The notes: generated from the letters alone by a model not told the origin. Shown: positions 2,420-47,789, counted from the stretch's first letter. The stretch: DNA of 64,000 bases from Longimicrobiales bacterium (GCA_965203235.1 CBDBCH010000002.1:94-64093), one strand, 5' to 3'. Numbers and translations are program-made.

Positions 2420-2420
2420 C

Positions 2421-9130: not shown

Positions 9131-9131
9131 T

Positions 9132-10099: not shown

Positions 10100-10333
10100 C
10101 CGACTTGATTGTCGAGATCGCCGTCCTGTTCGTCTCTCTCGGCGCCTCCGTCTGGTACATGATGGCTGAGGTCAAGAAAATGGTGGAGGATCAGGGCAAG
10201 CGAATGGAGCAGGGCTTTCGGGATGTCGTTCAAGCGATTCGGGGACATGGAACGTTCTGTCTCTGAGGCGCATAACCGCCAGCAAGAGGATTTGACGCAC
10301 CTTCGGGCGCGGATCAATGGAGGGGGCAAGTGA
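10096..10333 (+). pseudogene. Copy of the 78-aa membrane protein gene with a 1-nt insertion
   Basis: An extra g at ~10243 (attcggggacatgg vs attcgggacatgg in 22472..22708) truncates the reading frame at 10266. Confidence 0.7.
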
Positions 10334-10500
10334 TGAGCGAGGAGCTTTTCATTCTGATTTACCTGGGGATGCTCATGGCCTTCGTGGGCTTCGTCCTCTA
10401 TGCGGTGGAGGCGCGGATTGACCGCACCGACAGGCGTATCCGGCGGGCGGCAAGCGAACCCCTCTGGAAGGTGGAGCGGGGACCTGCGGGGAAAAAGTGA
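10333..10500 (+). CDS. Small membrane protein (55 aa)
   Basis: MSEELFILIYLGMLMAFVGFVLYAVEARIDR... has one hydrophobic helix. TGATG start/stop coupling upstream and GTGA coupling downstream. Below the 60-aa ORF-track cutoff. Mirror copy at 22305..22472(-). Confidence 0.55.
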   Translation: MSEELFILIYLGMLMAFVGFVLYAVEARIDRTDRRIRRAASEPLWKVERGPAGKK

Positions 10501-11174
10501 ACGCCGTTGCCCCGCAAATCATCCGCCACGAGATACGGGAAGGGGCGCGGGTTCCGTGGCAAGTTATTCCGCCGGTGCTCTTCGGGGGCTTGCTGGTCGG
10601 GGCTATACTTGGGGGACTGACTATCCGGTCTTGCTATGATCCCCCGGAAGTGCTGGAGGCGACGCAAGCCGCGTATGAGGAGCGGATCGTGGAGCTTGAA
10701 AAAGCGGGAAAGGAAGCGCAGGAAGCGGCTTCGGAGGCGGCGCAGGAAGCCTACGAGCACCGGTTGAAGGCTACCGGGCTGGAGGACCAGCTTCGGAGAT
10801 ACCGGGAACAGGTTACTGACCGTCGCCGGGAGGCGGTAGAGGAGGTCAAGCGGGAAATCTCCGAGTTGCCGGAGGGCGCGTCCACTTACGAGGTCGCAAA
10901 GGTGGCGAACTTGGGGTTCCGGCAGATGTCGCTTTTCGCTGAGTCCCTGGAGCATGAGCTTGACCTGCAGACGGTTAGGGCGGCGCAGTCGGAGGCGGCT
11001 ATCGCTGACCTGCAGTACGCCTACTCCGAAGAACGGGCGGCGCGGGAGTACGCGGAAAAGCGGGCGGAAACCGCAGAGGCGCGGGTCGAGGAGTGGCGGG
11101 GCACGAACCGGCGGCGTATCGCCACTGCCGGGGCTATCGCCCTCGCGGTCGCTGTGGTACTCTTGGCGTCATGA
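10497..11174 (+). CDS. Membrane-anchored coiled-coil protein (225 aa)
   Basis: N-terminal (PPVLFGGLLVGAILGGL) and C-terminal (AIALAVAVVLLAS) hydrophobic helices flank a long E/A/R-rich coiled-coil region. Differs from the mirror copy 21631..22308 by one residue (S vs L, c/t at ~10990). Confidence 0.6.
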   Translation: MNAVAPQIIRHEIREGARVPWQVIPPVLFGGLLVGAILGGLTIRSCYDPPEVLEATQAAYEERIVELEKAGKEAQEAASEAAQEAYEHRLKATGLEDQLRRYREQVTDRRREAVEEVKREISELPEGASTYEVAKVANLGFRQMSLFAESLEHELDLQTVRAAQSEAAIADLQYAYSEERAAREYAEKRAETAEARVEEWRGTNRRRIATAGAIALAVAVVLLAS

Positions 11175-11407
11175 GCGACAAGCCGAACAAGGTCAGGTTC
11201 CTGTCGCGGAAACTTCATGGGGAGGCGGGGCACCCCGGATACGACGTCAAGCGGGCGGATGGTCCGGGAGAACTGACCGAGGATTGGGGAATACTCATGC
11301 AGGTCTTGAACAAGAGTTGGCTTTGGATGTCGCGCTCCGGGACCGAGTTCGGCACCTACCCTTCCTTCGCGGAGGCCAAGCGGCGTATCCGCGCTGAGCT
11401 AGAGTAG
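11171..11407 (+). CDS. Hypothetical protein (78 aa)
   Basis: ATG at 11171 overlaps the upstream stop (ATGA). The coding-like composition begins there, so the ORF-track 11093 start is trimmed. Mirror at 21398..21634. Confidence 0.5.
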   Translation: MSDKPNKVRFLSRKLHGEAGHPGYDVKRADGPGELTEDWGILMQVLNKSWLWMSRSGTEFGTYPSFAEAKRRIRAELE

Positions 11408-11411
11408 ACCC

Positions 11412-11723
11412 ATGCTCTCGATTCTGACGAACATCTTTTCCGGTCTCCGGGCTTGGCGCAGCACCGAGCGGATTCTGAACGAACCCCGGTATCAGGTGGG
11501 GACGATTCTGCACGAGATTCGGGATTCTTCGGGCGGACCGGCTCTGATGAAGAAGTCGGTGATTCGCTCGATGAGCTTGAAAGCCTACAACGCTGGCCGG
11601 GTCGAGGTTCAGTCGTTGACCGGGGGGGGAGTCTTGGGGGACCGGGTCATGGTGTTTTCCGCGAGGGAGTTCGACGCGCTTCACCCGGTGATTGCGCTGG
11701 TTCCGCCAAAGGCGAAAAGATGA
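11412..11723 (+). CDS. Hypothetical protein (103 aa)
   Basis: ORF-track ORF. Identical mirror at 21082..21393(-). Tightly packed in a co-directional gene string. Confidence 0.5.
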   Translation: MLSILTNIFSGLRAWRSTERILNEPRYQVGTILHEIRDSSGGPALMKKSVIRSMSLKAYNAGRVEVQSLTGGGVLGDRVMVFSAREFDALHPVIALVPPKAKR

Positions 11724-11851
11724 CCGAGACGGAAGCCATTTGGATATTCGTCGCCTTCGTTGCGACTATCACCCTGTCGGCTGCGGTGCTGATGTTCGTA
11801 TCGGAATACACCATGTTCCACATGGGGCGCGGGAAGCGAAAGCGGAAATGA
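11720..11851 (+). CDS. Small membrane protein (43 aa)
   Basis: MTETEAIWIFVAFVATITLSAAVLMFVSEY... has one TM helix and a basic tail. ATGA coupling at both ends. Mirror at 20954..21085. Confidence 0.5.
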   Translation: MTETEAIWIFVAFVATITLSAAVLMFVSEYTMFHMGRGKRKRK

Positions 11852-12144
11852 AGCGATCACTACTGGCGGCGGGCTTCGCCGTGACCGTCGCGGGCTTCGT
11901 CGGCTCCACTTGGCTCCTGTCCTTCGGCACCGACCCGGTGACCGGCGAGGCCTACCGGGCGATACCGAGAGATGTCATGTACCAGTGGTCCACCAGTCTC
12001 GCCGGGATTCTGCTGGCGGCGTGTACCGCCTACTTCCTGCCGCTCGATTGGATCACCCCCAAGACCGAGAAAGAGCGTATCGCCGGAGTGGTTTGCTTGA
12101 CCGCGCTGTGGTGCGTCATCATCCTGAGCATGGCGAGGCACTGA
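11848..12144 (+). CDS. Multi-pass membrane protein (98 aa), holin-like candidate
   Basis: MKRSLLAAGFAVTVAGFVGSTWLL..., ...LAGILLAACTAYFL... and ...VVCLTALWCVIILSM give about 3 hydrophobic helices. ATGA coupling. Mirror at 20661..20957. Confidence 0.5.
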   Translation: MKRSLLAAGFAVTVAGFVGSTWLLSFGTDPVTGEAYRAIPRDVMYQWSTSLAGILLAACTAYFLPLDWITPKTEKERIAGVVCLTALWCVIILSMARH

Positions 12145-12458
12145 TGGCGAAAGTCCTGTTCGTTCCGATTCGCCCGATTGACCGGCGGTACAAGGTCGCC
12201 AGCTACGAGGTCTACTACGCCGCCCGGATGCGGGGCTATCTCCAGTGGCTCTCGCCAATGGAGGGCGACCCAACAGAGAAAAAGTGGAACTGGAATCCCT
12301 GGGTTGGCATGGGCTGGAAGGACGGATTCGATACGCTGGAGGAAGCGCAAGAGTTCATTCGGGGGCTCACCGAGGGATGGGACCGGGAGGACGCCGAAGT
12401 TCGCCAGACGATGAGTAGTATCCGGGAGGAGGGGAAGTGCGGCGAAAAGTCTGCCTGA
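12144..12458 (+). CDS. Hypothetical protein (104 aa)
   Basis: The ATG at 12144 overlaps the upstream stop (TGATG). Mirror at 20347..20661. Confidence 0.5.
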   Translation: MAKVLFVPIRPIDRRYKVASYEVYYAARMRGYLQWLSPMEGDPTEKKWNWNPWVGMGWKDGFDTLEEAQEFIRGLTEGWDREDAEVRQTMSSIREEGKCGEKSA

Positions 12459-12628
12459 ACTGCGCCAACGAGACGCTGAACGGCGCCCCGTACTGCCTCC
12501 GGTGCGGGCGGGAGATCGGGCGCAGGCGCCAGCGGGCGGCGGAGGAGCGGCGGCTGCGCTACGTCCCCGCGACCCAGCGGGATTCGGGGGAAAAGGTCGA
12601 GGTCGGCGCCGCCTTCACCCCGAATTGA
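12437..12628 (+). CDS. Small zinc-ribbon protein (63 aa)
   Basis: CLNC...(10 aa)...CLRC motif. GTG start. Mirror at 20177..20368. Confidence 0.5.
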   Translation: MRRKVCLNCANETLNGAPYCLRCGREIGRRRQRAAEERRLRYVPATQRDSGEKVEVGAAFTPN

Positions 12629-12648
12629 AGCGAGGGGGTGGGCTGCCC

Positions 12649-13215
12649 GTGAGGTGGCTCGGAGCGGTCGCGGCGACGCTCCTGATGGCGACCATCGGCT
12701 ACGCCTGGCCGCCGGAAGCGGCGCCATACAGAGACACGTGGGACATGGAGTGGCGCCGGTGCGGACTCCGGCAGGTCTACGAACCCTGGATGCTCGGTCA
12801 GGTCACCCAGGAATCGCGCTGGCGCCCGGATGCCGTATCCCCGGCTGGCGCCATCGGTCTGGCGCAGGTCATGCCCGGAACGATGCGCGCGGTGCGTCGC
12901 GTCTACCGGGCGCGTCTTGCGGGCGCGGCGGGCGGCCCCGACTCTCCTGTGGTGGCGTTCCGCGTCCAGTGCGCCCTGACTCTCGAGAATCTGCGCGCGT
13001 TCCCTGGCGCCCCGGACCGTCGCACCCGGTGGGCTTGGGCGGCAGCGGCCTACAACGGCGGCGCCTCCTACCTGTTCCGGGAGCAAGAGGCAATGGCGGA
13101 CCGGTGGGATTGGCGGAACCGGACGGAGTGCCGCCGGTTCCGGTCGGCGGCGTCCTGCCGGGAAAATGAGGCCTATCCGGCGCACTGTCTCCGTTGGGTT
13201 CGGCTGTTCGAGTAG
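12649..13215 (+). CDS. Lytic transglycosylase (SLT domain), probable endolysin with N-terminal signal-anchor
   Basis: QESRWRPDAVSPAGAIGLAQVMPGT plus AYNGG match the SLT catalytic-Glu signature. GTG at 12649 lies about 10 nt after GAGGGGG and just after the upstream stop (12628). N-terminus: VRWLGAVAATLLMATIGYAW. Confidence 0.85.
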   Translation: MRWLGAVAATLLMATIGYAWPPEAAPYRDTWDMEWRRCGLRQVYEPWMLGQVTQESRWRPDAVSPAGAIGLAQVMPGTMRAVRRVYRARLAGAAGGPDSPVVAFRVQCALTLENLRAFPGAPDRRTRWAWAAAAYNGGASYLFREQEAMADRWDWRNRTECRRFRSAASCRENEAYPAHCLRWVRLFE

Positions 13216-13405
13216 CGGCTCGCCTGTCGGCTTCCTTCCACCCCGCTGGAAGGGACATGATTTGCTTCGTGGTGCGGGCAAGCTCCGGGTTGGCTTCGTT
13301 GAATCGCTTTTTCCAGTTTCGGAGCAGCTTCGTGTTGTCGGCTCGCCATTGCTGGTCGGGGTACAAATCCACCCAGTTCCCGTTCGGGAGTTGAACGCGA
13401 GGCAT
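12869..13405 (-). CDS. Hypothetical protein, 3' end uncertain (mirror of 19400..19936)
   Basis: The N-terminal part (MPRVQLPNGNWVDLYPDQQWRADNTKLLRNWKKRFNEANPEL...) looks coding. The distal ~350 nt overlap the convergent SLT gene and are low-complexity. Confidence 0.35.
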   Translation of the reverse strand: MPRVQLPNGNWVDLYPDQQWRADNTKLLRNWKKRFNEANPELARTTKQIMSLPAGWKEADRRAATRTAEPNGDSAPDRPHFPGRTPPTGTGGTPSGSANPTGPPLPLAPGTGRRRRRCRPLPPKPTGCDGPGRQGTRADSRESGRTGRGTPPQESRGRPPRPQDAPGRRDAPRASFRA

Positions 13406-13972
13406 CACACGTCGATGGGCTTGCGCCCGTTGCGTTTGCGGATTTGATTCACCACCGAGAGGAACGTGTGGATCCAAGCGGACTGGTCGCCTGGCAGCTT
13501 GTTCCGGGAGGCGATTATGTTTTCCGCAATGTCGGGGCGACCGGCGACCCACTTCAAGGATGTTTCCTTCGAGCAGGTCTGGCACTTCAACTTGGCGACA
13601 TTCACCTTCGGGGTCATGTAGCGGTGCGGGGGGCACTTGCGTGCGCCAGCATCGGCAGTTGATTCGCTACTGCCGGCGGATTCTCCAATCCCCACGAAGT
13701 TGATTCCGCCGTTGTTCTGCTTTCCAGGCTCGAACACTCCAACCGCCTCGCCGGTATCAGGATCGACGGTTGGGTCGATCATGGATTCCGGGACGGTCTC
13801 CGGCGGCTGCACGTAATCGTCAATCACAGGGGCTTCGCCCTTCGGCCAGACGCGCAGGACTCGCCGCAAGACCATACGCAGCGCGACGGAGCGGGTCCTC
13901 GCCGATTCGGGCGGCTTCCCGGTCAATGGCCTCGGTGAGGTCGTCGGGGGCGGAAAAGCTGATTGTAGTCAT
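13405..13972 (-). pseudogene. Copy of the RHH-domain gene with a 1-nt insertion near its 5' end
   Basis: An extra g at ~13893 (ggagcgggtcctc vs ggagcggtcctc in 18834..19400) takes the N-terminal ribbon-helix-helix segment out of frame. ORF-track shows only 13405..13926. Confidence 0.65.
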
Positions 13973-14343
13973 TGGGCGCAGAGCAACCTTCGCACACCGA
14001 CGATTCTTCCCTCTTCGTTCCGCACGACGGAATCAGGGCCGGTGTCGGGTGCGAAAACCACCGGCTTCAATGAATCGGGGACATAGGGGAGCAGCATCGT
14101 GGGGACGATGACATACTCTGTTCCGCCATTCGAGTAGGTGTCGAGGGCTTGCTGGATGTGCCGGATGGCTTCCTTTGACGGCTTCCCCGCGCTGAATACG
14201 GGAATGGTGTGCCCTTCGACGCGGATTGTCGAGACCTTTTCCTGTTCGAGTTTCAGACGGAGCGGTCTGTTGAAAGTCGGGGGAATCTCCACGACGAAAT
14301 CGTCGTCATAGATGCTGATGGCGTGTGGGGTCAAGTTATTCAT
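13969..14343 (-). CDS. Hypothetical protein (124 aa)
   Basis: Mirror of 18463..18837 (x+y=32806), identical translation. Confidence 0.5.
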   Translation of the reverse strand: MNNLTPHAISIYDDDFVVEIPPTFNRPLRLKLEQEKVSTIRVEGHTIPVFSAGKPSKEAIRHIQQALDTYSNGGTEYVIVPTMLLPYVPDSLKPVVFAPDTGPDSVVRNEEGRIVGVRRLLCAQ

Positions 14344-14560
14344 GGCTCTCCTCGTCGAGCATTGGCACCCATCCACTATCGAAAGTGTCGGCGACTTCCT
14401 GAACGGCGTCACAGAGGTCAAGCAGTTCCTTCCGGTAGAAGAGGCCGGAATGGTGCTCGATGTGAAGCCGGATGATGTCAATGGGCTGTTGGGGTTCGTC
14501 TCCGCGCAAGATGGAAGCAAGCGCGGAGATGGCTTCGGGCATAGTCATGGATTCGGTCAT
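14336..14560 (-). CDS. Hypothetical protein (74 aa)
   Basis: Mirror of 18246..18470, identical translation. Confidence 0.5.
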   Translation of the reverse strand: MTESMTMPEAISALASILRGDEPQQPIDIIRLHIEHHSGLFYRKELLDLCDAVQEVADTFDSGWVPMLDEESHE

Positions 14561-14561
14561 G

Positions 14562-14837
14562 CTACGCCTCCTTCGGGGGATTCAGGATCATCCTGCGGAC
14601 GGTATCCATAGCCTTCGCTTGGGTCTTACCGCCCATGTAGATGTCGCAACCTTCCTCGAAAGGGGTTCCCTTCAACAGCGTGGAAGCCTCCGCGTGCACC
14701 ACGTGCGGGCAGAACTGGTATCCGTGCGAGTAGGAGTAGAAGTACCCGACCAGCACGGGCGGCTTTGTGTCAGATAGGACGAGGACATCGAACGAATCGA
14801 CCGCGGCCGTCCTGCGGAAGCAGACGGTGCGTCTCAT
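14562..14837 (-). CDS. Hypothetical protein (91 aa)
   Basis: Mirror of 17969..18244, identical translation. Confidence 0.5.
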   Translation of the reverse strand: MRRTVCFRRTAAVDSFDVLVLSDTKPPVLVGYFYSYSHGYQFCPHVVHAEASTLLKGTPFEEGCDIYMGGKTQAKAMDTVRRMILNPPKEA

Positions 14838-15085
14838 GCGTCCGCCTCTCGCTGGCACAGCCAGCATATGTTCGCCGGGGCGATCCAATCCATGCCCCGG
14901 TCGCAGGTGGGGCAGGGTCCGCGCTTCGGGCGCGGCGCAGGCGGCCCGTAGTCCTGGACGACCTCGTACTGGATGGTGGGGGTGTCGTCCCCCGCTTCGC
15001 GGCGCCGGGCGATCTCGGCGAGCCGGTCGCCGGGGCGGTATGTGGGGGCCCGACCATCGTCGAGCCCCCGCCGGAACATGCCCAT
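14834..15085 (-). CDS. Small zinc-ribbon protein (83 aa)
   Basis: Mirror of 17721..17972, identical translation. Confidence 0.55.
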   Translation of the reverse strand: MGMFRRGLDDGRAPTYRPGDRLAEIARRREAGDDTPTIQYEVVQDYGPPAPRPKRGPCPTCDRGMDWIAPANICWLCQREADA

Positions 15086-15498
15086 CAGTATGCATCCTCG
15101 TATTCACACCGCGGGCACTGCCCGCATCGGGTGCCAATCGGGGTCGCGTCGATTGGGGTCTTGCGCACCACGCGGTAGGTGATGGAGGAGTGCCCGGTCT
15201 CGTCCTCATCCTCGTATCGGATGAGCGAGACCGTCTCCGGGTCGCGCCCCCAATCCTCTGCCGCCACCGCAATCGCATCGGCGCGACCGGCAGCAGAGTC
15301 GAGCGCGTCCCAGTCCGCGCTGGAGTCGATAGCGATCTCCAGTGCTTCCGAGACATCGACCTCAGCGGAATAGATGACCGCGCCATCGTGGGAGTAGGCG
15401 CAGGCGGCCCGGAGCTCGTCGCTCCAGCACTCGCCAGCGGCCCCGTGCGGTTCGCCGAACTCGGGAACTTCAGCGCGGTAGATGGTGAGCTTTCTCAT
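15085..15498 (-). CDS. Telomere-proximal hypothetical protein (137 aa)
   Basis: Mirror of 17308..17721, identical translation. Confidence 0.6.
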   Translation of the reverse strand: MRKLTIYRAEVPEFGEPHGAAGECWSDELRAACAYSHDGAVIYSAEVDVSEALEIAIDSSADWDALDSAAGRADAIAVAAEDWGRDPETVSLIRYEDEDETGHSSITYRVVRKTPIDATPIGTRCGQCPRCEYEDAY

Positions 15499-15505
15499 GT
15501 GACTG

Positions 15506-15612
15506 CCCTCCTTTGTGGCAGACGGGAATCCTAGCGTGCCCGAATTCGCCCTGTCAAGTGCCAATTCGCCCAAATCGGCACTTTTTTCGCCCAAATCGCA
15601 TTTTTTTTCGCC
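15506..15612 (-). promoter_or_regulatory. ITR promoter/operator/RBS module (mirror of 17194..17300)
   Basis: Reverse complement of the module described at 17194..17300. tgtcaa at 15552..15557 and atccta at 15528..15533. Confidence 0.55.
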
Positions 15613-15827
15613 TCCTGCGGCCGGAAAACGAAAAAACGCACGAAAGGGGTTCAGACGCCACCGGAACGACCGAGGGGATAGCTGGCTAGCCGTAGCGCGC
15701 CAGGATGCCCACAGCGCGCCACAGAATCGCATTCAGGGGAACATCTGACCGGCAGACGCCCCCGGATTCGGACCGCCGGGGCGGAAAAGACCGGCCGACC
15801 GCTCCGAAAAATCGCCTCCCCATCTCC

Positions 15828-15887
15828 GAGTCGCCTCCCCCCCGACTCCCCCCTGAGGGGGAGGAGGAGTCGGGGTGGAGGCGTCTC
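15828..15887. repeat. G/C-rich 60-bp imperfect palindrome inside the ITR
   Basis: gagtcgcctcc (15828..15838) pairs with ggaggcgtctc (15877..15887) at 10/11. ccgactcc (15842..15849) pairs with ggagtcgg (15866..15873) at 8/8. Both share one axis (sum 31715). Also present in the other three ITR copies (about 16919..16978, 51357..51416, 52351..52410). Confidence 0.7.
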
Positions 15888-15992
15888 TCCAAAACACCCT
15901 CGAAAACGGCGCAAATCGGGGGAGCGAGGGCGGGACGCCAGGGACGCGGGTTCGACCGGGGGGTTCGAGGGCGGAAATCGGGGTTCTGAAAC

Positions 15993-16288
15993 CTGTCATT
16001 CGCGCTTCATTCTCGCTTCATTCTCGCTTCATCAAGGCGATGAAAGCTAACATCCCTGGGGGGGGAGTTCGGGAAATGAACCGGGGGGCTTCCACCGCTG
16101 GCGGGGATGATTCGCGGATGAAGCGCGGATGATAGAGACATCAGCGAGACATCAAGGCTAACATCAAGGGCGGATGAAGCGCGGATGATAGAGACATCCG
16201 GCGTGTCATACGGCGATGAAAAGCTAACATCAAGCTGTCATCAAGCCCACGAGCGCTATGCATAAGGCGTGTCATGTATCATTTTCGC
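15993..16288. repeat. Subtelomeric iteron-like repeat array (ITR copy A)
   Basis: An 11-bp tandem repeat gcttcattctc occurs at 16004, 16015 and (degenerate) 16026. A 29-bp direct repeat gcggatgaagcgcggatgatagagacatc occurs at 16114..16142 and 16170..16198. gctaacatc(aag) occurs 3 times (~16046, 16157, 16223). gatgatag occurs at 16128 and 16184. Confidence 0.85.
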
Positions 16289-16517
16289 AAGCGGGAGTTT
16301 GCACCTATCATCGTTCTCCGGCGCGAAACATGCTGGGGCTAGCGGGGCTTGCGGGCTATCATCGTCCCCAAGAGCTTCTAGCGGTCCCCGGCTTCTAAGG
16401 CTGTGCCTTAGACGCCGGGGATCGCAAGAATCTCTAGGGGAGGATGATAGACCGCTAGCCCCGCTTGCCCCACCATGATTCGCGGCGGGGAAGGATGATA
16501 GGTGCATACTCCCGCTA
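16289..16517. other. Junction-1 core: 229-bp imperfect palindrome, candidate duplex copy of a mismatched hairpin telomere
   Basis: Pairing i with 32806-i gives 96 complementary and 16 non-complementary pairs per 112-nt half, with no indels. The 5-nt apex ctgtg is at 16401..16405. The flanks are exactly complementary from 16288/16518 outward. Confidence 0.85.
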
Positions 16518-17317
16518 GCGAAAATGATACATGACACGCCTTATGCATAGCGCTCGTGGGCTTGATGACAGCTTGATGTTAGCTTTTCATCGCCGTATGA
16601 CACGCCGGATGTCTCTATCATCCGCGCTTCATCCGCCCTTGATGTTAGCCTTGATGTCTCGCTGATGTCTCTATCATCCGCGCTTCATCCGCGAATCATC
16701 CCCGCCAGCGGTGGAAGCCCCCCGGTTCATTTCCCGAACTCCCCCCCCAGGGATGTTAGCTTTCATCGCCTTGATGAAGCGAGAATGAAGCGAGAATGAA
16801 GCGCGAATGACAGGTTTCAGAACCCCGATTTCCGCCCTCGAACCCCCCGGTCGAACCCGCGTCCCTGGCGTCCCGCCCTCGCTCCCCCGATTTGCGCCGT
16901 TTTCGAGGGTGTTTTGGAGAGACGCCTCCACCCCGACTCCTCCTCCCCCTCAGGGGGGAGTCGGGGGGGAGGCGACTCGGAGATGGGGAGGCGATTTTTC
17001 GGAGCGGTCGGCCGGTCTTTTCCGCCCCGGCGGTCCGAATCCGGGGGCGTCTGCCGGTCAGATGTTCCCCTGAATGCGATTCTGTGGCGCGCTGTGGGCA
17101 TCCTGGCGCGCTACGGCTAGCCAGCTATCCCCTCGGTCGTTCCGGTGGCGTCTGAACCCCTTTCGTGCGTTTTTTCGTTTTCCGGCCGCAGGAGGCGAAA
17201 AAAAATGCGATTTGGGCGAAAAAAGTGCCGATTTGGGCGAATTGGCACTTGACAGGGCGAATTCGGGCACGCTAGGATTCCCGTCTGCCACAAAGGAGGG
17301 CAGTCACATGAGAAAGC
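16404..17317. repeat. Inverted terminal repeat, copy B (left end of the complete genome unit)
   Basis: Reverse complement of 15489..16402. Shares its outer 800 bp (16518..17317) with 51950..52749, the same 790-nt distance from core edge to ATG. Confidence 0.9.
17194..17300 (+). promoter_or_regulatory. ITR promoter with phased GGCGAA boxes and RBS for the telomere-proximal gene
   Basis: TTGACA at 17249..17254, 18-nt spacer, TAGGAT at 17273..17278, AAGGAGGG at 17293..17300, ATG at 17308. GGCGAA boxes sit at 17194, 17215, 17236 and 17256 (spacing 21/21/20 nt). The last box lies in the promoter spacer. Boxes 2 and 3 belong to a longer repeat, tgc(c)gatttgggcgaa. Confidence 0.6.
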
Positions 17318-17721
17318 TCACCATCTACCGCGCTGAAGTTCCCGAGTTCGGCGAACCGCACGGGGCCGCTGGCGAGTGCTGGAGCGACGAGCTCCGGGCC
17401 GCCTGCGCCTACTCCCACGATGGCGCGGTCATCTATTCCGCTGAGGTCGATGTCTCGGAAGCACTGGAGATCGCTATCGACTCCAGCGCGGACTGGGACG
17501 CGCTCGACTCTGCTGCCGGTCGCGCCGATGCGATTGCGGTGGCGGCAGAGGATTGGGGGCGCGACCCGGAGACGGTCTCGCTCATCCGATACGAGGATGA
17601 GGACGAGACCGGGCACTCCTCCATCACCTACCGCGTGGTGCGCAAGACCCCAATCGACGCGACCCCGATTGGCACCCGATGCGGGCAGTGCCCGCGGTGT
17701 GAATACGAGGATGCATACTGA
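17308..17721 (+). CDS. Telomere-proximal hypothetical protein (137 aa), acidic, C-terminal CxxCxxC
   Basis: The ATG lies 8 nt after AAGGAGGG. The first 3 codons (MRK) lie inside the ITR. ORF-track 17074..17721 is trimmed to the RBS-supported start. Ends ...CGQCPRCEYEDAY. Confidence 0.6.
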   Translation: MRKLTIYRAEVPEFGEPHGAAGECWSDELRAACAYSHDGAVIYSAEVDVSEALEIAIDSSADWDALDSAAGRADAIAVAAEDWGRDPETVSLIRYEDEDETGHSSITYRVVRKTPIDATPIGTRCGQCPRCEYEDAY

Positions 17722-19400: not shown

Positions 19401-19936
19401 TGCCTCGCGTTCAACTCCCGAACGGGAACTGGGTGGATTTGTACCCCGACCAGCAATGGCGAGCCGACAACACGAAGCTGCTCCGAAACTGGAAAAAGCG
19501 ATTCAACGAAGCCAACCCGGAGCTTGCCCGCACCACGAAGCAAATCATGTCCCTTCCAGCGGGGTGGAAGGAAGCCGACAGGCGAGCCGCTACTCGAACA
19601 GCCGAACCCAACGGAGACAGTGCGCCGGATAGGCCTCATTTTCCCGGCAGGACGCCGCCGACCGGAACCGGCGGCACTCCGTCCGGTTCCGCCAATCCCA
19701 CCGGTCCGCCATTGCCTCTTGCTCCCGGAACAGGTAGGAGGCGCCGCCGTTGTAGGCCGCTGCCGCCCAAGCCCACCGGGTGCGACGGTCCGGGGCGCCA
19801 GGGAACGCGCGCAGATTCTCGAGAGTCAGGGCGCACTGGACGCGGAACGCCACCACAGGAGAGTCGGGGCCGCCCGCCGCGCCCGCAAGACGCGCCCGGT
19901 AGACGCGACGCACCGCGCGCATCGTTCCGGGCATGA
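19400..19936 (+). CDS. Hypothetical protein, 3' end uncertain
   Basis: The ATG at 19400 overlaps the upstream TGA. The first ~70 codons look coding. No in-frame stop occurs until 19936, so the ORF overlaps the convergent SLT gene by ~350 nt with a Pro/Gly/Arg-rich tail. Confidence 0.35.
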   Translation: MPRVQLPNGNWVDLYPDQQWRADNTKLLRNWKKRFNEANPELARTTKQIMSLPAGWKEADRRAATRTAEPNGDSAPDRPHFPGRTPPTGTGGTPSGSANPTGPPLPLAPGTGRRRRRCRPLPPKPTGCDGPGRQGTRADSRESGRTGRGTPPQESRGRPPRPQDAPGRRDAPRASFRA

Positions 19937-20156
19937 CCTGCGCCAGACCGATGGCGCCAGCCGGGGATACGGCATCCGGGCGCCAGCGCGATTCCTGGGT
20001 GACCTGACCGAGCATCCAGGGTTCGTAGACCTGCCGGAGTCCGCACCGGCGCCACTCCATGTCCCACGTGTCTCTGTATGGCGCCGCTTCCGGCGGCCAG
20101 GCGTAGCCGATGGTCGCCATCAGGAGCGTCGCCGCGACCGCTCCGAGCCACCTCAC
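19590..20156 (-). CDS. Lytic transglycosylase (SLT domain), probable endolysin
   Basis: Mirror of 12649..13215 (x+y=32805). SLT signature QESRW...AGAIGLAQVMP and AYNGG. Confidence 0.85.
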   Translation of the reverse strand: MRWLGAVAATLLMATIGYAWPPEAAPYRDTWDMEWRRCGLRQVYEPWMLGQVTQESRWRPDAVSPAGAIGLAQVMPGTMRAVRRVYRARLAGAAGGPDSPVVAFRVQCALTLENLRAFPGAPDRRTRWAWAAAAYNGGASYLFREQEAMADRWDWRNRTECRRFRSAASCRENEAYPAHCLRWVRLFE

Positions 20157-20176
20157 GGGCAGCCCACCCCCTCGCT

Positions 20177-20368
20177 TCAATTCGGGGTGAAGGCGGCGCC
20201 GACCTCGACCTTTTCCCCCGAATCCCGCTGGGTCGCGGGGACGTAGCGCAGCCGCCGCTCCTCCGCCGCCCGCTGGCGCCTGCGCCCGATCTCCCGCCCG
20301 CACCGGAGGCAGTACGGGGCGCCGTTCAGCGTCTCGTTGGCGCAGTTCAGGCAGACTTTTCGCCGCAC
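20177..20368 (-). CDS. Small zinc-ribbon protein (63 aa)
   Basis: Mirror of 12437..12628. CLNC...CLRC. Confidence 0.5.
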   Translation of the reverse strand: MRRKVCLNCANETLNGAPYCLRCGREIGRRRQRAAEERRLRYVPATQRDSGEKVEVGAAFTPN

Positions 20369-20661
20369 TTCCCCTCCTCCCGGATACTACTCATCGTCTG
20401 GCGAACTTCGGCGTCCTCCCGGTCCCATCCCTCGGTGAGCCCCCGAATGAACTCTTGCGCTTCCTCCAGCGTATCGAATCCGTCCTTCCAGCCCATGCCA
20501 ACCCAGGGATTCCAGTTCCACTTTTTCTCTGTTGGGTCGCCCTCCATTGGCGAGAGCCACTGGAGATAGCCCCGCATCCGGGCGGCGTAGTAGACCTCGT
20601 AGCTGGCGACCTTGTACCGCCGGTCAATCGGGCGAATCGGAACGAACAGGACTTTCGCCAT
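20347..20661 (-). CDS. Hypothetical protein (104 aa)
   Basis: Mirror of 12144..12458. Confidence 0.5.
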   Translation of the reverse strand: MAKVLFVPIRPIDRRYKVASYEVYYAARMRGYLQWLSPMEGDPTEKKWNWNPWVGMGWKDGFDTLEEAQEFIRGLTEGWDREDAEVRQTMSSIREEGKCGEKSA

Positions 20662-20957
20662 CAGTGCCTCGCCATGCTCAGGATGATGACGCACCACAGC
20701 GCGGTCAAGCAAACCACTCCGGCGATACGCTCTTTCTCGGTCTTGGGGGTGATCCAATCGAGCGGCAGGAAGTAGGCGGTACACGCCGCCAGCAGAATCC
20801 CGGCGAGACTGGTGGACCACTGGTACATGACATCTCTCGGTATCGCCCGGTAGGCCTCGCCGGTCACCGGGTCGGTGCCGAAGGACAGGAGCCAAGTGGA
20901 GCCGACGAAGCCCGCGACGGTCACGGCGAAGCCCGCCGCCAGTAGTGATCGCTTCAT
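20661..20957 (-). CDS. Multi-pass membrane protein (98 aa), holin-like candidate
   Basis: Mirror of 11848..12144. Confidence 0.5.
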   Translation of the reverse strand: MKRSLLAAGFAVTVAGFVGSTWLLSFGTDPVTGEAYRAIPRDVMYQWSTSLAGILLAACTAYFLPLDWITPKTEKERIAGVVCLTALWCVIILSMARH

Positions 20958-21085
20958 TTCCGCTTTCGCTTCCCGCGCCCCATGTGGAACATGGTGTATT
21001 CCGATACGAACATCAGCACCGCAGCCGACAGGGTGATAGTCGCAACGAAGGCGACGAATATCCAAATGGCTTCCGTCTCGGTCAT
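20954..21085 (-). CDS. Small membrane protein (43 aa)
   Basis: Mirror of 11720..11851. Confidence 0.5.
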   Translation of the reverse strand: MTETEAIWIFVAFVATITLSAAVLMFVSEYTMFHMGRGKRKRK

Positions 21086-21393
21086 CTTTTCGCCTTTGGC
21101 GGAACCAGCGCAATCACCGGGTGAAGCGCGTCGAACTCCCTCGCGGAAAACACCATGACCCGGTCCCCCAAGACTCCCCCCCCGGTCAACGACTGAACCT
21201 CGACCCGGCCAGCGTTGTAGGCTTTCAAGCTCATCGAGCGAATCACCGACTTCTTCATCAGAGCCGGTCCGCCCGAAGAATCCCGAATCTCGTGCAGAAT
21301 CGTCCCCACCTGATACCGGGGTTCGTTCAGAATCCGCTCGGTGCTGCGCCAAGCCCGGAGACCGGAAAAGATGTTCGTCAGAATCGAGAGCAT
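21082..21393 (-). CDS. Hypothetical protein (103 aa)
   Basis: Mirror of 11412..11723. Confidence 0.5.
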   Translation of the reverse strand: MLSILTNIFSGLRAWRSTERILNEPRYQVGTILHEIRDSSGGPALMKKSVIRSMSLKAYNAGRVEVQSLTGGGVLGDRVMVFSAREFDALHPVIALVPPKAKR

Positions 21394-21397
21394 GGGT

Positions 21398-21634
21398 CTA
21401 CTCTAGCTCAGCGCGGATACGCCGCTTGGCCTCCGCGAAGGAAGGGTAGGTGCCGAACTCGGTCCCGGAGCGCGACATCCAAAGCCAACTCTTGTTCAAG
21501 ACCTGCATGAGTATTCCCCAATCCTCGGTCAGTTCTCCCGGACCATCCGCCCGCTTGACGTCGTATCCGGGGTGCCCCGCCTCCCCATGAAGTTTCCGCG
21601 ACAGGAACCTGACCTTGTTCGGCTTGTCGCTCAT
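21398..21634 (-). CDS. Hypothetical protein (78 aa)
   Basis: Mirror of 11171..11407. Confidence 0.5.
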   Translation of the reverse strand: MSDKPNKVRFLSRKLHGEAGHPGYDVKRADGPGELTEDWGILMQVLNKSWLWMSRSGTEFGTYPSFAEAKRRIRAELE

Positions 21635-22308
21635 GACGCCAAGAGTACCACAGCGACCGCGAGGGCGATAGCCCCGGCAGTGGCGATACGCCGCCGGTTC
21701 GTGCCCCGCCACTCCTCGACCCGCGCCTCTGCGGTTTCCGCCCGCTTTTCCGCGTACTCCCGCGCCGCCCGTTCTTCGGAGTAGGCGTACTGCAGGTCAG
21801 CGATAGCCGCCTCCAACTGCGCCGCCCTAACCGTCTGCAGGTCAAGCTCATGCTCCAGGGACTCAGCGAAAAGCGACATCTGCCGGAACCCCAAGTTCGC
21901 CACCTTTGCGACCTCGTAAGTGGACGCGCCCTCCGGCAACTCGGAGATTTCCCGCTTGACCTCCTCTACCGCCTCCCGGCGACGGTCAGTAACCTGTTCC
22001 CGGTATCTCCGAAGCTGGTCCTCCAGCCCGGTAGCCTTCAACCGGTGCTCGTAGGCTTCCTGCGCCGCCTCCGAAGCCGCTTCCTGCGCTTCCTTTCCCG
22101 CTTTTTCAAGCTCCACGATCCGCTCCTCATACGCGGCTTGCGTCGCCTCCAGCACTTCCGGGGGATCATAGCAAGACCGGATAGTCAGTCCCCCAAGTAT
22201 AGCCCCGACCAGCAAGCCCCCGAAGAGCACCGGCGGAATAACTTGCCACGGAACCCGCGCCCCTTCCCGTATCTCGTGGCGGATGATTTGCGGGGCAACG
22301 GCGTTCAC
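21631..22308 (-). CDS. Membrane-anchored coiled-coil protein (225 aa)
   Basis: Mirror of 10497..11174. Two terminal TM helices flank a coiled coil. Confidence 0.6.
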   Translation of the reverse strand: MNAVAPQIIRHEIREGARVPWQVIPPVLFGGLLVGAILGGLTIRSCYDPPEVLEATQAAYEERIVELEKAGKEAQEAASEAAQEAYEHRLKATGLEDQLRRYREQVTDRRREAVEEVKREISELPEGASTYEVAKVANLGFRQMSLFAESLEHELDLQTVRAAQLEAAIADLQYAYSEERAAREYAEKRAETAEARVEEWRGTNRRRIATAGAIALAVAVVLLAS

Positions 22309-22472
22309 TTTTTCCCCGCAGGTCCCCGCTCCACCTTCCAGAGGGGTTCGCTTGCCGCCCGCCGGATACGCCTGTCGGTGCGGTCAATCCGCGCCTCCAC
22401 CGCATAGAGGACGAAGCCCACGAAGGCCATGAGCATCCCCAGGTAAATCAGAATGAAAAGCTCCTCGCTCAT
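22305..22472 (-). CDS. Small membrane protein (55 aa)
   Basis: Mirror of 10333..10500. Confidence 0.55.
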   Translation of the reverse strand: MSEELFILIYLGMLMAFVGFVLYAVEARIDRTDRRIRRAASEPLWKVERGPAGKK

Positions 22473-22708
22473 CACTTGCCCCCTCCATTGATCCGCGCCC
22501 GAAGGTGCGTCAAATCCTCTTGCTGGCGGTTATGCGCCTCAGAGACAGAACGTTCCATGTCCCGAATCGCTTGAACGACATCCCGAAAGCCCTGCTCCAT
22601 TCGCTTGCCCTGATCCTCCACCATTTTCTTGACCTCAGCCATCATGTACCAGACGGAGGCGCCGAGAGAGACGAACAGGACGGCGATCTCGACAATCAAG
22701 TCGGTCAT
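22472..22708 (-). CDS. Small membrane protein (78 aa), N-terminal TM helix plus charged tail, holin-like candidate
   Basis: MTDLIVEIAVLFVSLGASVWYMMAEVKK... The ATG overlaps the upstream stop (ATGA). ORF-track 22472..22858 is trimmed to this start. Confidence 0.55.
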   Translation of the reverse strand: MTDLIVEIAVLFVSLGASVWYMMAEVKKMVEDQGKRMEQGFRDVVQAIRDMERSVSEAHNRQQEDLTHLRARINGGGK

Positions 22709-23670: not shown

Positions 23671-23671
23671 A

Positions 23672-30087: not shown

Positions 30088-30377
30088 TACTCGTCCTCGG
30101 TGATAGCCACCGTGGAACCCTCGCCACTCACCACGAGCATGTGGTCGCCGTTCAGCGAGAACCCCCGCGAACTGCCGTAGCCATGCGGAGGAATCATAGG
30201 AGCAAAGCTAGTTATGGAATCATCCTGCAGGTTCGCCGGAAGCGAATCCACGAAGGCGACCCGCACAGAGTAGACCCCGACATTATCAAGCGTGTACCGC
30301 CCATCCCCGATACCCGCCGCCGTAGCAATATCCACGACCACCCCTGGTTCGAGAGTGACGAATCGGGTTTGCGCCAT
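30087..30377 (-). CDS. Hypothetical tail-module protein (96 aa)
   Basis: MAQTRFVTLEPGVVVDIATAAGIGDGRYTLDNVGVYSV... The ATG at 30377 lies just after the upstream stop (30379..30381). Confidence 0.55.
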   Translation of the reverse strand: MAQTRFVTLEPGVVVDIATAAGIGDGRYTLDNVGVYSVRVAFVDSLPANLQDDSITSFAPMIPPHGYGSSRGFSLNGDHMLVVSGEGSTVAITEDE

Positions 30378-30378
30378 G

Positions 30379-36574: not shown

Positions 36575-36591
36575 GGCCCGGTGGACCCGAA

Positions 36592-37038: not shown

Positions 37039-37039
37039 A

Positions 37040-38285: not shown

Positions 38286-38297
38286 GGTGGGTCTCCT

Positions 38298-39548: not shown

Positions 39549-39549
39549 G

Positions 39550-39921: not shown

Positions 39922-39923
39922 GA

Positions 39924-40436: not shown

Positions 40437-40450
40437 CAGACGCTCCCGTA

Positions 40451-41602: not shown

Positions 41603-41623
41603 GACGCTCCCTCCTTACCGCCC

Positions 41624-42313: not shown

Positions 42314-42333
42314 ACGCGCACTCTAGCACATAT

Positions 42334-47772: not shown

Positions 47773-47789
47773 CGTGATATGCTATCCCC

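What the first reader, a model, noticed from the sequence alone, without database searches (positions are those of the whole stretch)
16289..16517. Junction 1 core is an imperfect palindrome (16 mismatches, no indels), the signature of an incompletely base-paired hairpin telomere
Pairing i with 32806-i gives exact complementarity from 16288/16518 outward. ORF translations show it holds for at least ~2.4 kb. Inside 16289..16517 there are 96 complementary and 16 non-complementary pairs. The mismatched positions are i=16289, 16299, 16313, 16317, 16321, 16328, 16333, 16340, 16350, 16355, 16364, 16370, 16375, 16380, 16384 and 16393. All are substitutions and there are no indels. The apex is the 5-nt ctgtg at 16401..16405. 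Polymerase template switching or assembler fold-back would generate exact complements, so they do not explain a mismatched core confined to the terminal 112 nt. A hairpin terminus with mismatched bases, copied into duplex form at a concatemer junction, would look exactly like this. That is the flip/flop logic of poxvirus and ASFV telomeres. I know of no description of such telomeres in a portal/capsid/tape-measure phage.
Basis: partly seen in the sequence, partly recalled or inferred. Interest (0 to 1): 0.9.

Follow-up and report, generated by a model that had tools for sequence, protein, structure and literature searches.

The report
Mismatched hairpin telomere of a phage
A 35.5-kb tailed-phage genome appears in this contig folded back on itself at both ends, and the fold-back centre is a 229-base imperfect palindrome that most likely records a poxvirus-style, incompletely base-paired hairpin telomere, which has not been described for a tailed phage.

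Summary
Positions 16289-16517 form an imperfect palindrome with 16 substitutions and no indels. The loop is TGT, 3 nt rather than 5. The flanking arms are perfect for 2,395 nt and continue to the window start.

The window reads RC(genome) | junction 1 | 35.48-kb genome | junction 2 | RC(genome). The genome is a tailed phage with 914-nt inverted terminal repeats. Junction 2 is the exact reverse complement of junction 1 with a 97-nt internal deletion.

Arm differences outside the core are homopolymer indels, typical of long-read error. Inside the core they are evenly spaced, transversion-biased substitutions. A GATGATAG octamer occurs only at the two ends.

No protelomerase, Holliday-junction resolvase, HUH nickase, protein-primed polymerase or terminase was detected. 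Mismatches up to 114 nt from the apex cannot be inherited through protelomerase-type cutting at the axis. They require each strand of a replicated junction to fold on itself, as in poxviruses and ASFV.

It rests on one contig. No reads, relatives or resolving enzyme could be found.

The parts
16289..16517 (.). Junction 1 core. It is a 229-nt imperfect palindrome, read here as the unfolded left-end hairpin. The left arm is 16289-16401 (the reverse complement of arm version A) and the right arm is 16405-16517 (arm version B).
   Evidence: There are 16 substitution mismatches and no indels. As single-stranded DNA it folds into one continuous hairpin in which every mismatch is an isolated 1x1 internal loop. 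Neither arm has structure of its own, z >= -0.14.
16402..16404 (.). Apex loop TGT, closed by the C16401-G16405 pair.
1..16288 (-). Reverse-complement copy of the genome's left part (the left arm of the giant palindrome). It is perfect from 13894 to 16288. Further out it is a lower-quality copy with homopolymer indels that break the large ORFs.
   Evidence: one search compared.
16518..17317 (+). Left inverted terminal repeat outside the core (800 nt). With the core arm it measures 914 nt from the axis. It carries iteron-like repeats, two inverted GATGATAG copies and a sigma-70-like promoter at 17249-17278, plus a ribosome-binding site and ATG AGA AAG.
   Evidence: It is 100% identical to the reverse complement of 51018-51817. 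Repeats are and the promoter.
51018..51817 (-). Right inverted terminal repeat outside the core (800 nt).
51818..51949 (.). Junction 2 core, in flop orientation and truncated. 51818-51844 is the reverse complement of J1 16491-16517 (outer B arm). 51845-51949 is the reverse complement of J1 16289-16393 (A arm). J1 16394-16490 (97 nt, including the loop) is missing.
   Evidence: The match is exact with no other mismatch. All 16 A-type bases and 3 B-type bases are reproduced.
16443..16501 (+). Two GATGATAG octamers inside the right core arm (16443-16450 and 16494-16501). Mirror copies lie at 16305-16312 and 16356-16363. Inverted copies outside the core lie at 16615-16622 and 16671-16678, mirrored at 16128-16135 and 16184-16191. 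The same set occurs around junction 2.
   Evidence: There are 15 copies in the window, all within about 280 nt of a junction, against 0.8 expected by chance. No mismatch falls inside an octamer. The base 5' of both core copies is a G.G mismatch.
17308..17721 (+). First gene at the left end (137 aa, acidic, no known family). Its first three codons lie in the terminal repeat.
50731..51027 (-). First gene at the right end (98 aa, no known family). It shares the promoter, ribosome-binding site and first three codons with the left-end gene through the terminal repeat.
19590..44843 (-). Structural and lysis module. It contains an SLT lysin (19590-20303), large tail proteins (23672-26287, 26287-30087, 30379-34056), tape measure (34056-36263), tail chaperone (37040-37930), major capsid protein (40451-41602), scaffold (41624-42313), D12 N6-adenine methyltransferase (42334-43176) and a DUF4055 portal (43176-44843).
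44678..46974 (.). Two paralogous, convergently oriented AAA_25 (RepA-like) P-loop ATPases: 44678-45934 (+), 418 aa, and 45931-46974 (-), 347 aa. They carry the only P-loops found in the AAA-type ATPase genes of the genome.
   Evidence: Homologues sit in plasmid and island replication modules.
47790..48125 (+). DUF559/Vsr-like PD-(D/E)XK endonuclease (111 aa). It is the only nuclease recognised and is a weak candidate for nicking at the telomere.
   Evidence: It matches phrog_503 at 1e-22. Homologues are named very-short-patch-repair endonuclease or DUF559. The family also occurs in an ordinary terminase-bearing phage.
47206..50427 (-). Three Cys-rich, basic zinc-ribbon-like proteins that look like paralogues (47206-47772, 49345-49869, 49876-50427). 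They are candidate DNA or telomere binders.
   Evidence: The sequences were compared by eye; there is no significant family hit.

Best explanation
The contig is a long-read walk around, or a head-to-head/tail-to-tail concatemer of, a 35.48-kb linear double-stranded DNA genome of a tailed phage with 914-nt inverted terminal repeats. The ends of that genome are terminal hairpins.

Junction 1 is the left hairpin written out as one strand. It has a 113-bp stem closed by a TGT loop, and 16 isolated single-base mismatches are spread over the terminal 114 nt.

The mismatches lie far from the apex. They can therefore be inherited only if, after replication through the end, each strand of the duplex junction folds back on itself. 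Two routes would do this: cruciform or Holliday-junction resolution as in poxviruses and ASFV, or symmetric nicks outside the mismatched zone followed by refolding and ligation as proposed for rudiviruses and parvoviruses. Either route yields two inverted-complement isomers, flip and flop. A protelomerase that cuts 6 bp apart at the axis would give fully paired hairpins after one round and cannot maintain the mismatches.

What is shown: the sequence anatomy, the terminal repeats, the flop-oriented second junction, the absence of a protelomerase gene, and a GATGATAG site specific to the ends.

What is inferred: covalent closure of the ends, the resolution chemistry, the enzyme (host RuvC-type resolvase or an unrecognised phage protein), and the idea that GATGATAG sites bind a telomere or packaging protein.
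For: (1) Exact anatomy.

(2) The junction lies at the end of a terminal repeat that is 100% identical at both genome ends over 800 nt. Each copy carries an inward-facing promoter and a shared start codon.

(3) Junction 2 is the reverse complement of junction 1 with a 97-nt deletion and no other change. Both arm versions A and B therefore occur at both ends, on opposite strands. That is the flip/flop relation. It is not a left-end versus right-end difference or a strain difference.

(4) The error profiles differ. Outside the core the arms differ by 29 homopolymer indels and 3 substitutions over 13.9 kb, and one copy has broken ORFs. Inside the core there are 16 substitutions and no indels in 113 pairs.

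(5) The mismatches are over-dispersed, with a minimum spacing of 4 (P = 1.8e-4). Eleven of 16 are N.N homo-mismatches (P = 0.004). Only 2 are transition-type. This does not look like random error or neutral strain variation.

(6) GATGATAG occurs 15 times, only at the two junctions, and is never interrupted by a mismatch. The B-arm copy GGATGATAGA is identical to the duplex copies outside the core.

(7) No protelomerase, RusA/RuvC, HUH Rep, polB or terminal protein, or terminase was found in any plausible ORF.

(8) Long reads that continue past a replicon end into the other strand are the accepted signature of covalently closed hairpins (PMC13293297). Heritable hairpin mismatches arising through Holliday-type resolution are established for vaccinia (PMC8956199).
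Against: - This is a single contig from one assembly. No reads are available and the sequencing platform is unknown.
- No relative with the same ends was found in viral, genome or metagenome collections.
- Junction 2 is incomplete, so an intact flop form has not been seen. If junction 2 was polished with reads from junction 1, which share the terminal repeat, it is not independent evidence.
- No resolving enzyme was identified.
- Nanopore basecalling is known to degrade in the second copy of an inverted repeat (PMC7229812). The mismatched zone (114 nt) is similar in extent to the junction 2 deletion.
- Whether virions contain closed hairpins is unknown.
Confidence: 0.6

Rival explanations
1. 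There is a real terminal palindrome, but the ends are open or only transiently hairpinned (parvovirus-like rolling-hairpin replication). The mature genome would carry the 229-bp imperfect palindrome as duplex at each end. Fold-back self-priming would create the head-to-head and tail-to-tail replicative intermediates that were sequenced, and the packaged DNA would not be covalently closed.
For: The junction sequence, the flip/flop relation and the terminal repeats are the same as in the main model. The contig cannot distinguish a concatemer junction from a read-through of a closed hairpin. The lack of a terminase fits any unit-length maturation mechanism.
Against: No HUH/Rep-type nickase and no phage DNA polymerase were found. 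Open palindromic ends would be substrates for RecBCD and SbcCD. Rolling-hairpin replication is known only for small single-stranded DNA genomes (general knowledge). The arms show no T- or Y-shaped internal structure.
Confidence: 0.14
2. The hairpin is real but the mismatches are not. The end would be a perfectly paired hairpin, possibly made by a host protelomerase. The 16 differences and the junction 2 deletion would be systematic long-read basecalling or consensus errors caused by rapid re-zipping of the second arm.
For: Nanopore reads of inverted duplications show incorrect and missed base calls in the second copy (PMC7229812). Read in one direction, the 97-nt junction 2 deletion starts at the apex and removes the first ~86 nt of the second arm. 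The contig elsewhere shows residual long-read errors. Hairpin replicons with terminal inverted repeats and a protelomerase exist in bacteria (PMC13293297).
Against: The core has no indels, while all but 3 of the other errors in the contig are indels. The register is kept over 113 pairs. The same A bases (16 of 16) and B bases (3 of 3) recur at junction 2. The substitutions are evenly spaced and biased to complement transversions. Three of them turn CGATGATAG(C) into GGATGATAG(A), matching the undisputed duplex copies. The arms are error-free immediately beyond 114 nt for 2.4 kb. No protelomerase gene is present.
Confidence: 0.12
3. The fold-back is an artefact of library preparation or assembly. 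Possible causes are MDA or template-switch chimeras, head-to-head ligation of two genome ends, or an assembler walking back along the reverse strand. The true genome would have ordinary ends with terminal repeats.
For: Palindromic contigs are a known artefact class (general knowledge). The left arm copy is of lower quality, which suggests few supporting reads.
Against: Both junctions fall exactly at the outer end of the terminal repeat rather than at random sites. Template switching or graph fold-back would give exact complements, not a 14% mismatched core. The odd-length, asymmetric TGT centre is incompatible with blunt head-to-head ligation of identical ends. The assembler traversed both ends, so spanning reads were not rare. 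No protein-primed polymerase or terminase is present to support an alternative end type.
Confidence: 0.08
4. Two co-existing strain variants with perfect hairpins (A/A and B/B) were merged into a chimeric A/B consensus.
For: The contig comes from an assembly that may be of low coverage, and variant collapse is common (general knowledge).
Against: Every read that crosses a 229-nt core covers both arms, so a majority consensus would pick the same variant on both arms. There are no differences in the adjacent 800-nt terminal repeat or in the next 1.6 kb. The 14:2 transversion bias is unlike natural polymorphism. Junction 2 again pairs A with B.
Confidence: 0.03

Closest known systems
Poxvirus, ASFV and chlorovirus flip/flop hairpin telomeres (vaccinia F/S hairpins; PMC8956199)
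   Same: These are linear double-stranded DNA genomes with inverted terminal repeats. The terminal hairpin of about 100 nt is incompletely base-paired. The replicated junction is an imperfect palindrome flanked by perfect inverted repeats. The two isomers are inverted complements of each other. The mismatches are heritable because each strand of the junction refolds. Conserved sequence elements lie next to the hairpin.
   Different: The host is a bacterium and the virion is tailed. The hairpin is GC-rich. Its mismatches are all 1x1 substitutions, mostly N.N, rather than extrahelical bases in AT-rich DNA. No RuvC-like resolvase of the A22 type, no telomere-binding I1/I6 homologues and no viral DNA polymerase were detected. 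The genome is 35 kb rather than 130-370 kb.
Telomere phages N15, PY54, phiKO2 and VP882, and the Borrelia ResT and Agrobacterium TelA systems (protelomerase)
   Same: These are bacterial or phage linear replicons with hairpin ends. Replication gives head-to-head junctions that must be resolved. Some have terminal inverted repeats (PMC13293297).
   Different: Those hairpins are made by a tyrosine-recombinase-like protelomerase that cuts 6 bp apart at the axis. They are therefore fully paired, and the replicated junction is a perfect palindrome. Here the mismatches reach 114 nt from the apex and no protelomerase gene exists. In N15-type phages the hairpin form is the prophage, and the virion DNA has cos ends made by a terminase, which is absent here.
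Rudiviruses (SIRV1/2; PMC5062984)
   Same: The genome is about 32-35 kb of linear double-stranded DNA with long inverted terminal repeats and covalently closed hairpin ends. Replicative intermediates are head-to-head and tail-to-tail. Replication starts at the termini.
   Different: These are archaeal rod-shaped viruses. They encode a Rep nicking-joining enzyme and an Hjc-type resolvase (general knowledge). Neither was detected here. No comparable set of regularly spaced mismatches has been described for them.
Parvovirus and AAV terminal hairpins (rolling-hairpin replication)
   Same: They have terminal imperfect palindromes with flip/flop inversion. Protein-binding repeats lie next to mismatches or bubbles that make junction resolution asymmetric.
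   Different: These are 5-kb single-stranded DNA genomes. The hairpins are T- or Y-shaped, and an HUH nickase (Rep/NS1) is required. Here the hairpin is a simple rod, the genome is 35 kb and no HUH protein was found.

Membership tests
Protelomerase-type hairpin telomere (N15 TelN, TelK, ResT, TelA) | A protelomerase (telomere resolvase) gene on the element | tested here: not met
   No Pfam, PHROGs or NCBIfam hit to telomere resolvase or tyrosine recombinase in any plausible ORF of the complete 35.5-kb genome. A host-encoded enzyme cannot be excluded.
Protelomerase-type hairpin telomere (N15 TelN, TelK, ResT, TelA) | The replicated junction is a perfect palindrome, with the hairpin fully paired beyond the few bases at the turn | tested here: not met
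   There are 16 mismatches at 10-114 nt from the axis.
Protelomerase-type hairpin telomere (N15 TelN, TelK, ResT, TelA) | Covalently closed ends | not testable with these tools
   This needs reads or DNA. The contig continuing into the other strand is consistent with closure.
Pox/ASFV-type flip/flop hairpin telomere | Inverted terminal repeats ending in the hairpin | tested here: met
   The terminal repeat is 914 nt, and its 800 nt outside the core are 100% identical between the ends.
Pox/ASFV-type flip/flop hairpin telomere | Incompletely base-paired terminal hairpin, seen as an imperfect palindrome confined to the junction centre | tested here: met
   The arms are perfect immediately outside the core.
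Pox/ASFV-type flip/flop hairpin telomere | Two isomers that are inverted complements (flip and flop) | tested here: inconclusive
   Junction 2 is the reverse complement of junction 1 but lacks 97 nt. Within one junction, orientation is undefined because the flanks are palindromic. Read-level data are needed.
Pox/ASFV-type flip/flop hairpin telomere | Head-to-head and tail-to-tail concatemer junctions | tested here: inconclusive
   The contig has exactly this arrangement. A read-through of closed hairpins gives the same sequence.
Pox/ASFV-type flip/flop hairpin telomere | A virus-encoded RuvC-like Holliday-junction resolvase | tested here: not met
   No RuvC or RusA was found (family scans above; RusA of relatives against the genome by tblastn). 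Distant relatives that share the head genes do encode RusA beside the portal.
Pox/ASFV-type flip/flop hairpin telomere | A conserved resolution element in inverted copies flanking the hairpin | tested here: inconclusive
   GATGATAG copies specific to the ends flank and populate the core symmetrically. Their function is untested.
Rudivirus-type hairpin genome | A Rep-like nicking-joining enzyme and an Hjc resolvase | tested here: not met
   No HUH/Rep or Hjc family hits. The only nuclease found is a DUF559/Vsr-like protein.
Parvovirus-type rolling hairpin | An HUH nickase and branched (T/Y-shaped) terminal hairpins | tested here: not met
   No HUH protein was found. The arms have no structure of their own.
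Protein-primed genomes with terminal repeats (phi29, PRD1, adenovirus) | A family-B DNA polymerase and a terminal protein, with ends that do not continue into the other strand | tested here: not met
   No polymerase was found. The contig continues through both ends into the complementary strand.
Tailed phage (Caudoviricetes) | HK97-fold capsid, portal and tail genes | tested here: met
   Portal phrog_145 at 7e-75, major capsid protein phrog_283 at 3e-35, scaffold, tape measure and tail chaperone.
Tailed phage (Caudoviricetes) | A large terminase subunit | tested here: not met
   No terminase hit in any ORF. In the AAA-type ATPase genes the only P-loops are those of the two AAA_25 paralogues.

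The most novel reading that the evidence does not exclude
[quoted passage not shown] The ends are poxvirus-like mismatched hairpins produced by strand refolding at concatemer junctions. The regularly spaced, mostly N.N mismatches and the end-specific GATGATAG sites serve as the recognition signal for resolution, packaging or both, as the mismatches do in vaccinia. One of the two RepA-like ATPases would act as a nuclease-free packaging motor.
Probability: 0.3. Interest if true: 0.9.

Novelty: new variant of a known kind. Interest (0 to 1): 0.75.

Why it matters
All known phage and bacterial hairpin telomeres are made by protelomerases and are fully base-paired. Mismatched flip/flop hairpins are known only from eukaryotic large DNA viruses, with a parvovirus analogue.

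[quoted passage not shown] It would provide a small, tractable model for concatemer-junction resolution and for the role of hairpin mismatches, which are essential for vaccinia packaging (PMC8956199).

It would also raise two questions. One is how a portal-containing capsid is filled without a terminase. The other is how such ends escape SbcCD and mismatch repair.

There is a practical point as well. Double-length palindromic contigs in long-read metagenomes may be real hairpin genomes and should not be discarded as artefacts.

Tried and rejected
(1) Relatives with the same ends. An exact terminal-repeat pattern found nothing in viral, genome or metagenome contigs. A portal protein scan of viral contigs found nothing. 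The closest portal homologues are at most 41% identical and share only head and tail genes, and their available contig ends show no fold-back. A scan of GTDB genomes with a portal profile gave only relatives at 34% identity or less, spread over many phyla, so no host could be assigned.

(2) Homologues of the AAA_25 ATPase lie in circular plasmids and genomic islands and say nothing about telomeres.

(3) Scans for the motif architecture. GGATGATAG-N-GGATGATAG in viral contigs gave 75 hits at chance level, in low-GC DNA, with no shared proteins. A three-block pattern in metagenomes gave 19 hits. Most are low-GC tandem arrays of the octamer. Two of them (L168, L173) carry a 232-nt imperfect palindrome with GGGGATGATAG at a contig end. 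I first took this as an independent example. I rejected it because the flank is TG/CA-rich, microsatellite-like DNA with no coding similarity, so it is probably an unrelated fold-back element.

(4) The 368-aa ORF at 46687-47793 was dismissed as a wrong-frame artefact of high GC.

(5) The Vsr-like nuclease as a dedicated resolvase. The same family sits in an ordinary terminase-bearing phage, so it remains only a weak candidate.

(6) A weak RusA-like match in the protein from 47206-47772 has no catalytic motif.

(7) Rfam and tRNA scans of the genome found nothing.

(8) PDB sequence searches with three proteins found nothing.

(9) The source record could not be retrieved. The proteins are on record only as coming from a 67,717-nt NCBI/ENA contig, with no accession.

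Full report
**Observation.** Reading 16100-16700 and pairing i with 32806-i reproduces the finding exactly. The non-complementary pairs lie at 16289, 16299, 16313, 16317, 16321, 16328, 16333, 16340, 16350, 16355, 16364, 16370, 16375, 16380, 16384 and 16393. There are no indels, and complementarity is perfect from 16288/16518 out to 13894/18912. C16401 pairs with G16405, so the loop is TGT (16402-16404) rather than 5 nt. As single-stranded DNA the region folds into one uninterrupted hairpin in which each of the 16 differences is an isolated 1x1 mismatch. The energy is -139.7 kcal/mol against -43.8 +/- 3.7 for shuffles. Neither arm has structure of its own, so this is a rod-like hairpin and not a T-shaped one.

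**Architecture of the window.** The repeat search shows that the whole window is RC(genome) | junction 1 (axis 16403) | genome | junction 2 (outer flanks symmetric about 51883.5) | RC(genome). The unit between the axes is 35.48 kb.

- The arms of junction 1 extend to the window start. Beyond 13894/18912 they differ only by 29 single-base homopolymer indels and 3 substitutions. The left copy has its large ORFs broken, while the central copy has intact ORFs of 871, 1266 and 1225 aa. The contig is therefore a long-read assembly with residual homopolymer errors, and one arm has lower support.
- The arms of junction 2 are identical over 12,084 nt.
- The two genome ends share an inverted terminal repeat. 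Outside the core it is 800 nt long and 100% identical (16518-17317 against 51018-51817).
- Each repeat copy carries a TTGACA-18-TAGGAT promoter (17249-17278), a ribosome-binding site and the codons ATG AGA AAG. After these codons the two ends diverge into different first genes.

**Junction 2.** The reverse complement of junction 2 equals junction 1 with positions 16394-16490 deleted and no other difference. Position 51818-51844 is the reverse complement of the outer 27 nt of the right arm (version B). Position 51845-51949 is the reverse complement of the left arm, that is version A, the sequence complementary to the left arm of junction 1. Both arm versions therefore occur at both genome ends, always opposite each other, and the second end is in the inverted orientation.

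All 16 A-type bases and 3 B-type bases are reproduced. This rules out a left-end versus right-end difference. It also argues against a random consensus mosaic.

The deletion has no clean microhomology. Read in one direction, it begins 9 nt before the loop and removes the first ~86 nt of the second arm. It may be a consensus or basecalling defect at a strong hairpin (PMC7229812), or it may be a real variant. I cannot tell which.

**Nature of the mismatches.**
- They are over-dispersed, with gaps of 4-14 nt. P(min gap >= 4) is 1.8e-4 by random placement.
- Eleven of 16 are homo-mismatches: A.A x4, T.T x3, G.G x3 and C.C x1 (P = 0.004). Only two are the transition type (G.T).
- Five sit at the central W of a CTAG on one arm, opposite CTTG or CAAG on the other. 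CTAG is rare in the genome (0.9 per kb) but occurs 5 times in the 229-nt core. Every CTAG in the core is therefore intact only in the duplex (replicated) form and is broken in the hairpin form.
- This pattern resembles neither neutral polymorphism, which is rich in transitions, nor the indel-type errors seen elsewhere in the contig. The bias itself is unexplained.

**End-specific motif.** GATGATAG occurs 15 times in the window, always within about 280 nt of a junction and nowhere else in the 35-kb genome. Chance expectation is 0.8. Each arm has two copies in the core, at 40-47 and 91-98 nt from the axis, and two inverted copies in the perfect duplex, at 212-219 and 268-275 nt. No mismatch falls inside an octamer. 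The base 5' of both core copies is a G.G mismatch (C.C in the flop form). The B-arm 10-mer GGATGATAGA is identical to the outer duplex copies. The rest of the terminal repeat is packed with short iteron-like repeats. I infer that these are protein-binding sites.

**Gene content.** The unit is a tailed phage. It has a DUF4055 portal, major capsid protein, scaffold, tape measure, tail chaperone, large tail proteins, an SLT lysin and a D12 adenine methyltransferase. Every plausible ORF was scanned against Pfam and/or PHROGs, and key ones against NCBIfam. No protelomerase, tyrosine recombinase, RusA/RuvC, HUH Rep, DNA polymerase, terminal protein or terminase was found (the same calls plus 31, 32, 46, 68, 91-93).

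In the AAA-type ATPase genes the only P-loops are those of two paralogous, convergent AAA_25 (RepA-like) ATPases. Their homologues sit in plasmid and island replication modules.

The only recognisable nuclease is a 111-aa DUF559/Vsr-like protein. That family also occurs in an ordinary terminase-bearing phage.

Three Cys-rich, basic zinc-ribbon-like proteins and one RHH protein are candidate DNA binders.

**Mechanistic inference.** A protelomerase cuts the two strands 6 bp apart at the axis and joins each top strand to its own complement. Everything more than about 3 nt from the turn is then ordinary duplex, and any mismatch is lost after one replication (established mechanism; PMC3558466 is listed). 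Mismatches out to 114 nt are heritable only if each strand of the duplex junction folds on itself. Vaccinia does this by cruciform extrusion and A22 Holliday-junction cleavage, which gives inverted-complement F and S hairpins (PMC8956199). Symmetric nicks outside the mismatched zone, followed by refolding, would have the same result. The sharp boundary at 114 nt, beyond which 800 nt of terminal repeat and 1.6 kb of unique sequence carry no difference, fits this model. Which enzyme acts is unknown. A host RuvC-type resolvase or an unrecognised phage protein is inferred.

**Rivals.**
- Assembly fold-back, MDA chimeras or ligation would give exact complements at arbitrary sites. They would not give a 14% mismatched core with an odd, asymmetric TGT centre, placed exactly at the end of a terminal repeat at both genome ends.
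- Merged strain variants would give the same variant on both arms, because every spanning read covers both arms.
- A nanopore inverted-repeat artefact is the most serious technical rival, and it may explain the junction 2 deletion. It does not predict any of the following: substitutions only with the register kept; the same bases at two junctions; even spacing; or changes that recreate the consensus of the binding site.
- An open-ended, rolling-hairpin variant of the model cannot be separated from closed hairpins with sequence alone.

**Search for independent examples.** None was found. A 232-nt imperfect palindrome with GGGGATGATAG at contig ends in two metagenomes (L168, L173) looked promising. 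Its flank is microsatellite-like DNA with no shared proteins, so I treat it as unrelated. The phage is a singleton. Its best portal relative is 41% identical, and the nearest cultured relatives of its capsid protein are 29% identical Vibrio siphoviruses.

**Literature.** Five full-text searches found hairpin telomeres in phages only of the protelomerase type, and mismatched flip/flop hairpins only in eukaryotic viruses. Long reads that run past a replicon end into the other strand are used as evidence of closed hairpins in bacterial linear plasmids (PMC13293297).

**Verdict.** It is a new variant of a known kind: pox-like telomere logic in a tailed phage that lacks both a protelomerase and a terminase. 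Interest is high, but the case rests on one contig, and read-level or wet-lab confirmation is needed.

Noticed in passing
window 16403-51883 (whole genome): No large or small terminase subunit is detectable in a complete tailed-phage genome. The genes next to the portal are two RepA-like AAA_25 ATPases. In three distant relatives (L001-L003) the 10 kb upstream of the portal holds helicase/primase, RusA, HNH and methyltransferase genes, and again no terminase.
   Followed up: partly
window 44678-45934 (+) and 45931-46974 (-): Two paralogous AAA_25 P-loop ATPases are arranged tail-to-tail with a 4-nt overlap. Homologues elsewhere are single-copy and are followed by a protein of about 500 aa in plasmids and islands.
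   Followed up: partly
window 16289-16517: Eleven of 16 hairpin mismatches are N.N homo-mismatches, and 5 lie in the centre of a CTAG that is opposite CTTG or CAAG. CTAG is about 24-fold enriched in the core. Arm B has GATC and two GANTC sites where arm A has none, and the phage encodes a D12 adenine methyltransferase. No explanation was found.
   Followed up: partly
window 51818-51949: Junction 2 lacks 97 nt (J1 16394-16490), including the loop, and the deletion has no clean microhomology. It could be a consensus or basecalling defect at a hairpin, or a real truncated telomere.
   Followed up: partly
window 1-13894 compared with 18911-32806: The left arm copy differs from the central copy by 29 homopolymer indels that break the large tail-gene ORFs. 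The right arm copy (51917-64000) is identical to its partner over 12 kb. Read support is therefore uneven along the contig.
   Followed up: yes
window 17249-17317 and 51018-51086: The terminal repeat ends three codons into the first gene at each end. Two unrelated proteins (137 aa and 98 aa) therefore share a promoter, a ribosome-binding site and the N-terminal residues Met-Arg-Lys.
   Followed up: yes
window 47206-47772, 49345-49869, 49876-50427 (all -): Three Cys-rich, highly basic proteins with repeated CxxC motifs (zinc-ribbon-like) have no family assignment. A further pair of apparent paralogues lies at 48449-48754 and 49011-49355.
   Followed up: no
window 28331-29766 (mirror 3032-4465): Degenerate direct repeats of 53-107 nt, spaced about 315-340 nt and about 890 nt apart, lie inside the 1266-aa tail protein gene. 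They suggest repeated domains.
   Followed up: no
L168 1049-1280 and L173 8-239: An identical 232-nt imperfect palindrome (116-nt arms, 2 mismatches) carrying GGGGATGATAG motifs lies within 3-7 nt of a contig end in two different JGI metagenomes. It is followed by TG/CA-rich, microsatellite-like DNA and is probably an unrelated fold-back element.
   Followed up: partly
L085 and L086 (CBDFKD010000002.1, Acidobacteriota MAG): Two matches to the same DUF4055 portal lie 2.9 Mb apart in opposite orientation on one 5.76-Mb contig, with identical scores. This indicates two copies of one prophage.
   Followed up: no
L001 9509-9958, L002 9366-9821, L003 3702-4163: In all three closest head-gene relatives, a RusA Holliday-junction resolvase is the gene immediately upstream of the portal and diverges from it. 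In two of them it has a C-terminal zinc ribbon. The window phage has no RusA.
   Followed up: partly
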